64,000 bases of DNA from Escherichia coli. GTDB lineage: Bacteria > Pseudomonadota > Gammaproteobacteria > Enterobacterales > Enterobacteriaceae. Position 1 is the stretch's first letter. The number at the start of each line of letters is the position of its first letter. The translations under genes were made by a program, and so were the position numbers. The DNA is taken from assembly GCF_024502345.1 (NCBI RefSeq), contig NZ_JALDNN010000001.1; one strand, written 5' to 3'. The notes under the pieces are model-generated. The model did no database searches, was not told where the DNA came from, and saw nothing but the letters and a program-made list of their open reading frames with translations. Below are positions 26,045 through 29,372 of the stretch, piece by piece.

Positions 26045-28413
<2,369 letters not shown>

Positions 28414-28686
28414 CCGTTTGGTCAGCATAGCATCATGTTGTGCGAATAAACACCTGCTATTTTAATATTTGTTACAGTGGCTAAACACGCTGACGCAGGG
28501 CGGCGAGAAAAAGAGAAGTTACTGGCTGGTGGAGGATTAGGTGGTGAAATAAAAAGGCCGTTGGGTTACTCTTCAGGCAGTTAAATGGGCATTTCTACAC
28601 AGAGAATGCGATGTTCAGATTCTGTAGACTTATAATGATAGATAATGATCCGTCTACAGCATGACAAACAAAAACAGATGCGTTAC

Positions 28687-28714
28687 GGAACTTTACAAAA
28701 ACGAGACACTCTAA
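28687..28714 (+). promoter_or_regulatory. SigmaE-dependent autoregulated rpoE promoter
   Basis: GGAACTT (-35), 16-bp spacer, TCTAA (-10): matches the sigmaE consensus; about 85 bp upstream of the rpoE start. Confidence 0.7.
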
Positions 28715-28796
28715 CCCTTTGCTTGCTCAAATTGCAGCTAATGGAGTGGCGTTTCGATAGCGCGTGGAAATTTGGTTTGGGGAGACTTTACCTCGG

Positions 28797-29372
28797 ATGA
28801 GCGAGCAGTTAACGGACCAGGTCCTGGTTGAACGGGTCCAGAAGGGAGATCAGAAAGCCTTTAACTTACTGGTAGTGCGCTATCAGCATAAAGTGGCGAG
28901 TCTGGTTTCCCGCTATGTGCCGTCGGGTGATGTTCCCGATGTGGTACAAGAAGCTTTTATTAAAGCCTATCGTGCGCTGGATTCGTTCCGGGGAGATAGC
29001 GCTTTTTATACATGGCTGTATCGGATTGCTGTAAATACAGCGAAAAATTACCTGGTTGCTCAGGGGCGTCGTCCACCTTCCAGTGATGTGGATGCCATTG
29101 AAGCTGAAAACTTCGAAAGTGGCGGCGCGTTGAAAGAAATTTCGAACCCTGAGAACTTAATGTTGTCAGAAGAACTGAGACAGATAGTTTTCCGAACTAT
29201 TGAGTCCCTCCCGGAAGATTTGCGCATGGCAATAACCTTGCGGGAGCTGGATGGCCTGAGCTATGAAGAGATAGCCGCTATCATGGATTGTCCGGTAGGT
29301 ACGGTGCGTTCACGTATCTTCCGAGCGAGGGAAGCTATTGATAACAAAGTTCAACCGCTTATCAGGCGTTGA
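28797..29372 (+). CDS. rpoE: RNA polymerase sigma factor sigmaE (sigma-24, envelope stress)
   Basis: ATG at 28797 gives the 191-aa MSEQLTDQVLVERVQKGDQKAFNLLVVRYQHKV... protein. Confidence 0.95.
   Translation: MSEQLTDQVLVERVQKGDQKAFNLLVVRYQHKVASLVSRYVPSGDVPDVVQEAFIKAYRALDSFRGDSAFYTWLYRIAVNTAKNYLVAQGRRPPSSDVDAIEAENFESGGALKEISNPENLMLSEELRQIVFRTIESLPEDLRMAITLRELDGLSYEEIAAIMDCPVGTVRSRIFRAREAIDNKVQPLIRR

What the first reader, a model, noticed from the sequence alone, without database searches (positions are those of the whole stretch)
28622..28659. Unassigned 8-bp inverted repeat enclosing a TATAAT hexamer upstream of rpoE
CTGTAGAC and GTCTACAG form perfect inverted arms separated by 22 bp (ttataatgatagataatgatcc), which contains TATAAT and a tandem GATAATGAT motif. 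It lies about 30 bp upstream of the sigmaE-dependent -35 element and about 140 bp upstream of the rpoE start, in a region with multiple promoters. It could be a regulator-binding palindrome or a structured RNA/DNA element; I cannot assign it.
Basis: seen in the sequence. Interest (0 to 1): 0.3.

Follow-up and report, generated by a model that had tools for sequence, protein, structure and literature searches.

The report
Conserved hairpin in rpoE leader
The inverted repeat is real; its spacer holds a published minor rpoE promoter and the start codon of the leader peptide gene rseD, and its arms probably form a conserved RNA stem-loop in transcripts from the upstream rpoE promoters, which is a modest refinement of a well-studied region.

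Summary
The window is E. coli. CTGTAGAC (28622-28629) and GTCTACAG (28652-28659) are perfect arms around a 22-nt spacer. An 8-bp repeat of this kind is not rare by chance: P is about 0.2 within this intergenic region.

The spacer can be assigned. TATAAT (28631-36) sits correctly for the published minor promoter rpoE P5, whose start is at -153 (window 28644). A second box, GATAAT (28641-46), fits a TAP-enriched (primary-transcript) 5' end at -144. The annotated start codon of rseD (28645), the 51-aa leader peptide whose stop overlaps the rpoE start, lies in the spacer, and the 3' arm encodes rseD codons 3-5.

The symmetry is probably not incidental.
- Across Enterobacteriaceae the arm sequences change but stay complementary (U-A/U·G/C-G, G-C/A-U, and A-U to G-C in Klebsiella). 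Siccibacter, Shimwellia and Klebsiella have entirely different arms at the same position.
- A published Term-seq RNA 3' end maps 9 nt after the 3' arm.

Best reading: a stem-loop in leader RNA from the upstream promoters P1-P4. It blocks 3' trimming or marks premature 3' ends, and it cannot form on P5 transcripts.

What the stem-loop does is inferred, not shown. Interest is modest.

The parts
28622..28629 (+). 5' arm CTGTAGAC of the inverted repeat (5' half of the RNA stem)
   Evidence: It pairs in the minimum-energy and centroid folds of the P4 leader. It lies upstream of the P5 start, so it is present only in transcripts from P1-P4.
28630..28651 (+). 22-nt A/U-rich spacer, the loop of the hairpin. 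It holds both -10-like boxes, the P5 start and two ATGs.
   Evidence: TATAAT is exact in 15 of the 17 Enterobacteriaceae sequences in the unbiased genome set.
28652..28659 (+). 3' arm GTCTACAG (3' half of the stem). It equals rseD codons 3-5 (cGT CTA CAG).
   Evidence: It covaries with the 5' arm.
28631..28636 (+). TATAAT, the inferred -10 hexamer of rpoE P5
   Evidence: The P5 start at -153 (review PMC8103513 citing Klein 2016) is window 28644, 8 bp after the hexamer. No matching -35 was found.
28641..28646 (+). GATAAT, a second -10-like hexamer in the second copy of the 10-bp tandem unit
   Evidence: A TAP-enriched class II 5' end at U00096.2 2708178 corresponds to -144, window 28653, 7 bp after this hexamer (Romero 2014 supplement).
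28644..28644 (+). Published rpoE P5 transcription start (-153), 1 nt before the rseD AUG
   Evidence: The coordinate conversion was checked against P4 (-218, window 28579, matching the class I start 2708252) and K-12 coordinates.
28645..28800 (+). rseD, the rpoE leader peptide (51 aa). Its TGA overlaps the rpoE ATG as ATGA.
   Evidence: ORF; RefSeq annotation; NCBIfam NF033697, 104 bits against a cut-off of 35; b4725.
28635..28664 (+). Nine-codon mini-ORF from the first ATG, inside TTATAATGA (MIDNDPSTA*). Its status as a gene is speculative.
   Evidence: Read from the sequence. This ATG is present in nearly all Enterobacteriaceae sequences examined. Variation in the loop falls mainly on this frame's third positions. 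Not tested further.
28612..28666 (+). Extended stem-loop: the 8-bp stem plus outer pairs 28612-14 and 28616-17 with 28662-66
   Evidence: Other genera have lineage-specific outer helices, for example Enterobacter UAUCGUG/CGCGAUG and Klebsiella GCAAC/GUUGC.
28668..28668 (+). Published Term-seq RNA 3' end (NC_000913.3 2710141, minus strand of the record; -129 from rpoE), 9 nt after the stem
   Evidence: Adams 2021 eLife supplementary files 1 and 3, M63 0.4 sheet, average 29,295 reads.
28660..28739 (+). C>G tract directly downstream of the hairpin. It overlaps the sigmaE promoter and its A-rich upstream region.
   Evidence: GC skew is -0.14 to -0.33 here and positive on both sides.
28688..28715 (+). 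Context: sigmaE-dependent promoter P6 (GGAACTT, 16 nt, TCTAA)
   Evidence: It is conserved in all Enterobacterales aligned. The published start at -75 is window 28722.

Best explanation
The element has two layers.

**DNA layer.** The 22-bp spacer is the core of the minor, sigmaE-independent promoter rpoE P5. TATAAT is its -10 box and the start is at -153. A second GATAAT box 10 bp downstream probably gives the -144 start. The spacer also holds the start codon of rseD, the leader ORF whose stop overlaps the rpoE start.

**RNA layer.** The two arms matter only in longer transcripts from the upstream promoters P1-P4 (starts at -381, -327 and -218). These carry both arms and fold into a stem-loop of about -8.5 kcal/mol, with the AUGs in the loop. 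The stem-loop forms in vivo and defines a stable RNA 3' end 9 nt downstream. It most likely does this by stopping 3'-to-5' exonucleases after premature termination or cleavage in the poorly translated, C>G-rich leader. Part of the P1-P4 output therefore ends before rpoE, as a leader fragment of about 90 nt when started at P4.

Both arms fall within the ribosome footprint at the loop AUGs. The stem should therefore also hinder initiation of rseD on read-through RNA. P5 transcripts start inside the repeat, lack the 5' arm and cannot fold.

**Shown here or in cited data:** the sequence features, their positions, conservation of the pairing, and the mapped 5' and 3' ends.

**Inferred:** that the stem causes the 3' end, and any effect on rseD or rpoE expression.
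For: **Assignment of the spacer**
- rseD is annotated over the match in E. coli RefSeq genomes. It matches NF033697 and is b4725, starting at -152 in K-12.
- The published start sites are -381, -327, -218, -153 and -75. The -153 start puts TATAAT at -13..-8.
- Independent TAP-enriched 5' ends lie at -218 (class I) and -144 (class II).
- TATAAT is exact in 15 of the 17 Enterobacteriaceae sequences.

**RNA stem**
- It is present in the minimum-energy and centroid folds of the 252-nt P4 leader. The hairpin alone is -8.5 kcal/mol with z = -3.1.
- On 32 distinct sequences, 70.8% of cells are paired, against 28-44% when the 3' partners are slid. The covariation score is 0.182 against 0.136 in shuffles, with 0 of 500 shuffles reaching it.
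- Pair 14-45 is C-G in 18 sequences, U-A in 7 and U·G in 4. Pair 13-46 is G-C in 16 and A-U in 4. Pair 15-44 is A-U in 26, G·U in 2, C-G in 1 and G-C in 1.
- On an rpoE gene tree the U-A to C-G switch recurs in several clades, with U·G intermediates.
- Different arms occupy the same position: Siccibacter AGCGGAA/TTCCGCT, Shimwellia CGCGAAA/TTTCGCG (which has no TATAAT), and strain BIGb0407 TAGCGGA/TCTGCTG.
- Klebsiella has GGCA/UGCC plus GCAAC/GUUGC, at -17.6 kcal/mol and z = -2.9.
- Local fold z-scores average -1.26 and are negative in 39 of 43 distinct sequences.
- By my reading, internal wobbles are mostly G·U on the + strand: about 5 lineages against 1 with A·C.

**In vivo**
- A curated dominant Term-seq 3' end lies at -129, 9 nt after the stem.
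[quoted passage not shown] C>G sequence is seen here.
Against: - An 8-bp repeat alone is expected by chance in 20% of such regions.
- The consensus stem is short. RNAalifold keeps only 6 pairs at -3.7 kcal/mol.
- Citrobacter, Salmonella, Pluralibacter and Superficieibacter have fold z-scores near 0.
- Most Enterobacter sequences have an A·C mismatch at pair 13-46.
- The inner AGAC/GUCU core is nearly invariant. That says nothing for pairing and would equally suit a protein site.
- The shuffle control can be exceeded by related sequences that have no structure.
- The metagenome loci were selected for TTATAATGAV, so their loop conservation is by construction.
- The 3' end appears only in the M63 list, and no Rho score exists for it.
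- The published 5' ends disagree by 9 nt (-153 against -144).
- The primary papers (Klein 2016, Yakhnin 2017) could not be read.
- One E. coli strain lacks the 5' arm altogether, so the stem is dispensable.
Confidence: 0.55

Rival explanations
1. The symmetry is incidental. The element is only the P5 core promoter plus the rseD start codon, and the arms have no function. Any apparent covariation comes from shared ancestry, chance short complements in A/T-rich DNA, or template-switch 'correction' of quasi-palindromes during replication.
For: - 20% of shuffled intergenic regions contain such a repeat.
- Per-species stem tests are mostly non-significant, with p between 0.005 and 0.7.
- The consensus stem is weak.
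- A strain with the 5' arm deleted is viable and keeps TATAAT.
- The shuffle control is known to be exceeded by related sequences without any structure (caveat printed).
Against: - Complementarity persists with at least three unrelated arm sequences at the same position, including one genus without TATAAT.
- Slid-partner controls fall to 28-44% paired.
- Fold z-scores are negative in 39 of 43 sequences.
- An RNA 3' end lies 9 nt after the stem.
- The 38-nt element matches with no mismatch in 5410 of 5425 E. coli genomes.
Confidence: 0.2
2. The stem-loop mainly acts as a translational gate specific to the promoter of origin, on the model of IS10/IS50 fold-back inhibition. On P1-P4 read-through RNA the stem hinders ribosome loading at the rseD AUG or the upstream AUG, and so reduces coupled rpoE translation. 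P5 RNA starts 1 nt before the rseD AUG, is nearly leaderless and escapes the block. The 3' end would then be a by-product.
For: - The P5 start (28644) lies between the arms, and the rseD AUG is at 28645.
- The arms lie at -23..-16 and +8..+15 relative to that AUG, inside a normal 30S footprint (my own knowledge).
- Unfolding would cost about 8.5 kcal/mol.
- I see no Shine-Dalgarno-like sequence before either loop AUG.
- Long RseD-like ORFs in Escherichia, Citrobacter, Salmonella, Enterobacter sp. Ag1 and strain BIGb0407 all start at an AUG in the loop.
Against: - The AUGs sit in the loop, not in the stem.
- A full-length RseD ORF is absent from most genera that keep the hairpin, and homologues were found only in Escherichia, Shigella and Citrobacter.
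- No translation data were available.
- The alternative -144 start would exclude the rseD AUG from the transcript.
Confidence: 0.25
3. The arms are the half-sites of an operator for a dimeric DNA-binding regulator that clamps the P5 -10 and +1 region, or that acts on the sigmaE promoter from about -80.
For: - The arms flank the P5 -10 and +1 region, at -22..-15 and +8..+15.
- The inner AGAC...GTCT is nearly invariant in the main clade.
- Several regulators are reported to act on the rpoE upstream region, including RcsB, QseF and sigmaS-dependent control.
Against: - The half-sites are 30 bp apart centre to centre.
- The arm sequences are replaced outright in Siccibacter, Shimwellia and Klebsiella while complementarity is kept. 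A fixed protein specificity would not tolerate that.
- The best matches to the Fur, LexA, MetJ, CRP, CpxR, RcsB, IHF and PmrA consensus sequences are at background level.
- A protein site does not explain an RNA 3' end just after the stem.
Confidence: 0.08

Closest known systems
rpoE P5 promoter (Klein et al. 2016, J Biol Chem; read only through review PMC8103513)
   Same: The published start at -153 falls 8 bp after the TATAAT in the spacer. The other published starts (-218, -75) match sequence features and an independent class I start site.
   Different: As far as I could read, the promoter description says nothing about flanking symmetry. No usable -35 was found. An independent data set places a primary 5' end at -144 rather than -153.
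rseD (ORF51), the rpoE leader peptide translationally coupled to rpoE (Yakhnin et al. 2017, J Bacteriol; abstract recalled from memory, paper not held)
   Same: The annotated rseD ATG (28645) is in the spacer, the 3' arm is rseD codons 3-5, and the ATGA overlap with rpoE is present.
   Different: The hairpin is more widely conserved than the 51-aa ORF. In Citrobacter and Salmonella the ORF starts at the other loop ATG, because of a 1-nt deletion.
U-less protective stem-loops at steady-state 3' ends of Rho-terminated or processed transcripts (Dar & Sorek 2018), and 3' ends inside 5' UTRs (Adams et al. 2021)
   Same: There is a stable stem with no U tract, a mapped 3' end a few nt downstream, C>G sequence after it, and a location in a long leader next to a small upstream ORF.
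   Different: The loop is unusually large at 22 nt and contains a promoter and start codons. Rho or exonuclease dependence is untested. The 3' end is listed in one of three growth conditions only.
Fold-back inhibition of IS10/IS50 transposase mRNAs (from my own knowledge)
   Same: One arm of the repeat lies upstream of the element's own start site. Only read-through transcripts from outside promoters can form the hairpin around the translation start.
   Different: Here the start codons are in the loop rather than in the stem, the locus is chromosomal and not a mobile element, and no translational effect has been shown.
Intrinsic terminators and leader-peptide attenuators
   Same: A stem-loop in a leader, next to a short ORF.
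   Different: There is no U tract, no G+C-rich short-loop stem and no alternative antiterminator. The scan found none.

Membership tests
sigma70-type promoter (rpoE P5) | -10 hexamer close to TATAAT | tested here: met
   Exact TATAAT at 28631-36. It is exact in 15 of the 17 Enterobacteriaceae sequences.
sigma70-type promoter (rpoE P5) | Experimentally mapped primary 5' end about 7 bp downstream of the hexamer | not testable with these tools
   From the literature only. A start at -153 is 8 bp after TATAAT. A TAP-enriched end at -144 is 7 bp after GATAAT.
sigma70-type promoter (rpoE P5) | -35 hexamer at 16-18 bp, or an extended -10 TG | tested here: not met
   The consensus scan found no promoter in 28390-28800. 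The hexamer at 17-bp spacing is GCGATG (2 of 6 matches), and there is no TG before the -10.
RseD leader peptide (NCBIfam NF033697) | Protein match above the curated cut-off, with the stop overlapping the rpoE start | tested here: met
   104.2 bits against a cut-off of 35. ATGA overlap at 28797-28800.
Conserved RNA stem-loop | Pairing kept through compensatory changes in related sequences, above controls | tested here: met
   Caveats: the stem is short, the sequences are related, and the inner core is invariant.
Conserved RNA stem-loop | Folds better than shuffled sequence | tested here: inconclusive
   - The 38-nt element has z = -3.1.
- With flanks, E. coli gives z = -1.2 to -1.5.
- The mean is -1.26 across 43 sequences, and several genera are near 0.
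Protective stem-loop at a Rho-dependent or processed 3' end | Stable stem, no U tract, RNA 3' end just downstream, C>G sequence after it | tested here: met
   - Stem stability is -8.5 kcal/mol.
- No terminator-like site was found.
- The published 3' end lies 9 nt after the stem.
- GC skew is negative over 28640-28739.
Protective stem-loop at a Rho-dependent or processed 3' end | The 3' end depends on Rho and/or on PNPase or RNase II | not testable with these tools
   Rho scores exist only for the LB 0.4 list, which does not contain this end.
Intrinsic terminator | G+C-rich stem, loop of 3-8 nt, run of U | tested here: not met
   None found in 28390-28800. The loop is 22 nt and the tail is CAUGACAAAC.
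Known transcription-factor operators (Fur, LexA, MetJ, CRP, CpxR, RcsB, IHF, PmrA) | Close match to the consensus at the correct spacing | tested here: not met
   - The Fur match is 11 of 19, and the window has 395 sites that good.
- CTGT...ACAG is spaced 30 nt apart, not the 8 nt of a LexA box.
- The other motifs match at background level.
Rfam RNA families | Covariance-model hit at or near the gathering score | tested here: not met
   Only chance-level hits, with E of 4 or more and under 17 bits against a gathering score of 36 or more.
Repeated or mobile element (REP, MITE, IS end) | Multiple copies per genome | tested here: not met
   A median of one place per E. coli genome, always at rseD.
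Fold-back inhibition architecture | The element's own start site lies between the arms, so only read-through RNA can fold | tested here: met
   The starts at 28644 and 28653 lie inside 28622-28659. This is met by coordinates only.
Fold-back inhibition architecture | The hairpin lowers translation of read-through transcripts | not testable with these tools
   No reporter or toeprint data were available.

The most novel reading that the evidence does not exclude
A leader-RNA stem-loop conserved across Enterobacteriaceae makes the output of the sigmaE-independent rpoE promoters conditional. Transcripts from P1-P4 are attenuated or ended just upstream of the sigmaE promoter and are poorly translated at the leader ORF. 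Transcripts from the promoter embedded in the loop escape. This would be a post-initiation control layer on an essential stress sigma factor that has not been described.
Probability: 0.25. Interest if true: 0.5.

Novelty: new member of a known kind. Interest (0 to 1): 0.33.

Why it matters
rpoE encodes the essential envelope-stress sigma factor of E. coli, and its six promoters and leader peptide are actively studied. Suppose the stem-loop truly ends or silences part of the transcription coming from the Rcs-, QseF- and sigmaS-responsive upstream promoters. Reporter fusions that measure only promoter activity would then overestimate how much those signals raise sigmaE. It would also suggest why a leader ORF with no visible ribosome-binding site sits there. 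The proposal can be tested directly with a handful of point mutations. If the stem has no effect, the finding reduces to a correct annotation of a known promoter and start codon.

Tried and rejected
- **Rfam.** A scan of 28000-29200 at E up to 10 gave only chance snoRNA and lncRNA hits.
- **Promoter and terminator scan.** It found neither a full sigma70 consensus promoter nor an intrinsic terminator.
- **Known operator motifs.** Fur, LexA, MetJ, CRP, CpxR, RcsB, IHF and PmrA all matched at background level. The Fur-like look of GATAATGAT is 11 of 19, and the window has 395 equally good sites.
- **DNA cruciform.** Considered and set aside, because a 22-nt loop makes extrusion implausible (inference).
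- **Repeated or mobile element.** Rejected, because the element is single copy.
- **Primary papers.** Klein 2016 and Yakhnin 2017 are not held under DOI or PMC id. The promoter positions come from a review.
- **Start-site tables.** The Cappable-seq and ROSE supplements are truncated or lack the locus. Thomason 2015 is not held.
- **Other 3'-end tables.** The Dar & Sorek supplement is not held. The rpoE hits in the TRS supplement are on a different genome record (NZ_CP023861.1), not MG1655.
- **Polyamine 'bulged-out' structure of rpoE mRNA.** It lies at about -20 near the rpoE AUG and is unrelated to this element.
- **Literature on this stem-loop.** Searches for rseD, rpoEP4/P5 and rpoE leader or mRNA found no description of it in the held library.
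- **Hairpin outside Enterobacteriaceae.** Pantoea, Serratia, Rahnella, Edwardsiella, Photorhabdus and others gave no signal at the equivalent position.
- **Common outer helix.** The outer helices differ in register between genera, so only per-sequence z-scores could be used.

Full report
**Where this is.** The 431 bp around the finding are 100% identical to an E. coli O121 chromosome and are present in 5425 of 5426 complete E. coli genomes. Three features are annotated under the match: nadB, rseD ('rpoE leader peptide RseD') and rpoE. In window coordinates:
- nadB runs on the minus strand and ends at 28389.
- rseD is 28645-28800.
- The rpoE ATG is at 28797, overlapping the rseD stop as ATGA.
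- K-12 MG1655 has the identical element, and its rseD (b4725) starts at -152 from the rpoE ATG.

**The observation.** The exact tandem repeat is ATAATGAT x2 with a 10-bp period. An 8-bp perfect repeat with a spacer up to 40 nt is not unusual. The window has 122 of them against about 46 in shuffles, and one in five shuffled intergenic regions has at least one. The case for function therefore rests on other evidence.

**The spacer can be assigned.**
- A review citing Klein et al. 2016 gives six rpoE start sites at -381, -327 (P2/P3), -218, -153 and -75.
- With the A of the ATG as +1, -75 is 28722. That is the right distance from GGAACTT-N16-TCTAA (28688-28715).
- -218 is 28579, 7 bp after a conserved TACTCT. 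It coincides with a class I (TAP-enriched, leading-edge) start at U00096.2 position 2708252 in an independent data set.
- The same independent data set lists a TAP-enriched class II 5' end at 2708178. This is -144, or 28653, 7 bp after the second box GATAAT (28641-46).
- The tandem 10-bp unit thus looks like two overlapping -10 elements. The 9-nt disagreement between the two sources is unresolved.
- No -35 is recognisable, which fits a minor promoter.
- The rseD ATG (28645) is 1 nt after the -153 start, so P5 mRNA would be nearly leaderless for rseD.
- The sigmaE-dependent transcript (from -75) does not contain this ATG.

**Is the symmetry more than chance?** I collected rpoE upstream regions from 80 reference genomes. 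I added 61 metagenome contigs selected only for TTATAATGAV, GGAACTT and the rpoE start, plus Salmonella and Klebsiella.

In the main Enterobacteriaceae clade the inner AGAC...GTCT is nearly invariant, and the next three pairs outward change together:
- Pair 14-45 is C-G in 18 sequences, U-A in 7 and U·G in 4.
- Pair 13-46 is G-C in 16, A-U in 4 and A·C in 10.
- Pair 15-44 is A-U in 26, G·U in 2, C-G in 1 and G-C in 1.

Overall, 70.8% of cells are paired, against 28-44% when the 3' partners are slid by 1-3 columns. The covariation score exceeds all 500 shuffles. On an rpoE gene tree the U-A to C-G switch occurs in several clades, with U·G intermediates.

More telling, other genera carry unrelated arms at the same place:
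- Siccibacter has AGCGGAA/TTCCGCT.
- Shimwellia has CGCGAAA/TTTCGCG. This differs from Siccibacter by a compensatory G-C to A-U change, and the genus has lost TATAAT.
- Strain BIGb0407 has TAGCGGA/TCTGCTG.
- Enterobacter sp. R1 has flipped a G-C pair to C-G.
- Klebsiella pneumoniae has GGCA/UGCC plus GCAAC/GUUGC, changing the otherwise invariant A-U to G-C, at -17.6 kcal/mol and z = -2.9.

Folding the local 58 nt gives negative z-scores in 39 of 43 distinct sequences, with a mean of -1.26. Most minimum-energy structures are a two-part helix, with a lineage-specific outer stem. No signal is seen outside Enterobacteriaceae.

The weaknesses are real:
- The consensus stem is only 6 bp.
- Several genera have z near 0.
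- Most Enterobacter sequences carry an A·C mismatch.
- The sequences are related.

**Strand and level.** By my count, internal wobble pairs are mostly G·U on the + strand: about five lineages, against one with A·C. This favours a + strand RNA over a DNA palindrome or an antisense RNA, but not significantly. A cruciform is implausible with a 22-nt loop. An operator is disfavoured for three reasons: the 30-bp half-site spacing, the outright replacement of the arm sequences, and background-level matches to known motifs.

**Experimental hint that the stem forms.** The curated Term-seq list of Adams et al. 2021 contains a dominant RNA 3' end at NC_000913.3 2710141 (minus strand of that record) in M63 glucose. 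The average is 29,295 reads, and the printed flanking sequence is this element. That position is -129, window 28668, 9 nt after the last stem base.

P5 transcripts would be too short to give this end, so it must come from P1-P4 RNA, about 90 nt long if started at P4. [quoted passage not shown] Here the stem is -8.5 kcal/mol, there is no U tract, and GC skew is negative for about 80 nt downstream. Rho or exonuclease dependence has not been measured for this end.

**Most likely mechanism.**
- The spacer is a promoter core and start-codon region (known biology).
- The arms make a stem-loop only in read-through RNA from the upstream promoters.
- The stem-loop marks or stabilises a premature 3' end just before the sigmaE promoter.
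- Both arms lie within a ribosome footprint around the loop AUGs, so the stem probably also impedes initiation of the leader ORF on those RNAs.
- P5 RNA starts between the arms and cannot fold. This architecture resembles fold-back inhibition in IS10 and IS50 (my own knowledge).
- The link from structure to rpoE expression is inference.

**The leader ORF.**
- RseD homologues turn up only in Escherichia, Shigella and Citrobacter.
- A full-length ORF reaching the rpoE start exists only in some lineages.
- In Citrobacter and Salmonella a 1-nt deletion makes it start at the other loop ATG, the one inside TTATAATGA.
- The hairpin with an AUG in its loop is therefore more conserved than the 51-aa protein.

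**Within-species variation.** The 38-nt element matches with no mismatch in 5410 of 5425 genomes. Two exceptions were inspected:
- Strain 2012C-4227 has four copies of the 10-nt unit and an A-to-G change in the 5' arm that still allows a G·U pair.
- Strain RM13752 has a 19-nt deletion that removes the 5' arm yet regenerates TATAAT.

The stem is therefore strongly conserved but not essential.

**Verdict.** The 'unassigned' spacer is largely explained by published features, namely P5 and rseD. The symmetry is probably a real, modestly stable leader-RNA stem-loop that is conserved across Enterobacteriaceae. I found no description of it in the held library. It is a new member of a familiar kind of element, of modest interest.

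Noticed in passing
window 28396-28413 (second, looser copy at 28468-28488): Palindrome TGTTTA-N6-TAAACA just upstream of the nadB start. It is conserved in nearly all Enterobacteriaceae aligned. It looks like the NadR operator of the nadB promoter (from memory; not tested).
   Followed up: no
window 28635-28664: The first loop ATG, inside TTATAATGA, opens a 9-codon ORF (MIDNDPSTA*). Across genera the loop varies mainly at this frame's third positions (GAN, AAY, GAN), giving M-x-[DEH]-N-[DENQ]-x-S. The stop position varies, from 9 to more than 16 codons. This could be a conserved micro-ORF, or merely constraints from the promoter and the stem.
   Followed up: partly
L143 (E. coli 2012C-4227), about 2470-2530: The 10-nt unit ATAATGATAG is present in four copies instead of two, widening the loop to 42 nt. 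The 5' arm carries an A-to-G change that keeps a G·U pair.
   Followed up: partly
L144 (E. coli RM13752), about 2490-2500; equivalent to window 28613-28631: A 19-nt deletion removes the whole 5' arm but recreates TATAAT at the junction. This is a natural stem-less variant that could serve as a test strain.
   Followed up: partly
window 28716 and 28765: Two published ends are unexplained. One is a TAP-enriched 5' end at -81 (U00096.2 2708115, flagged 'YES' in a column I took to mean a known RegulonDB start), 6 nt upstream of the expected sigmaE start at -75. The other is a Term-seq 3' end at -32 in LB at OD 0.4 (Rho score 0.51, 'No').
   Followed up: no
window 28566-28579: TTACTCT, followed 7 bp later by the -218 start (P4, reported as sigmaS-dependent). 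It is conserved in most Enterobacterales aligned, including Pantoea, and matches a class I start site. This is the main source of RNA that contains the hairpin.
   Followed up: partly
window 28626-28638 compared with 28781-28800: AGACTTATAATGA at the 5' arm and loop resembles the rpoE ribosome-binding region GAGACTTTACCTCGGATGA. The 3' arm's GUCU could in principle pair with either AGAC. Only 4 bp are involved and no covariation is available.
   Followed up: no
hit H15 (NZ_CP123197.1): In this strain the match to the intergenic region begins only at window 28611, 11 nt before the 5' arm. The upstream promoters P1-P4 appear to be replaced or interrupted there.
   Followed up: no
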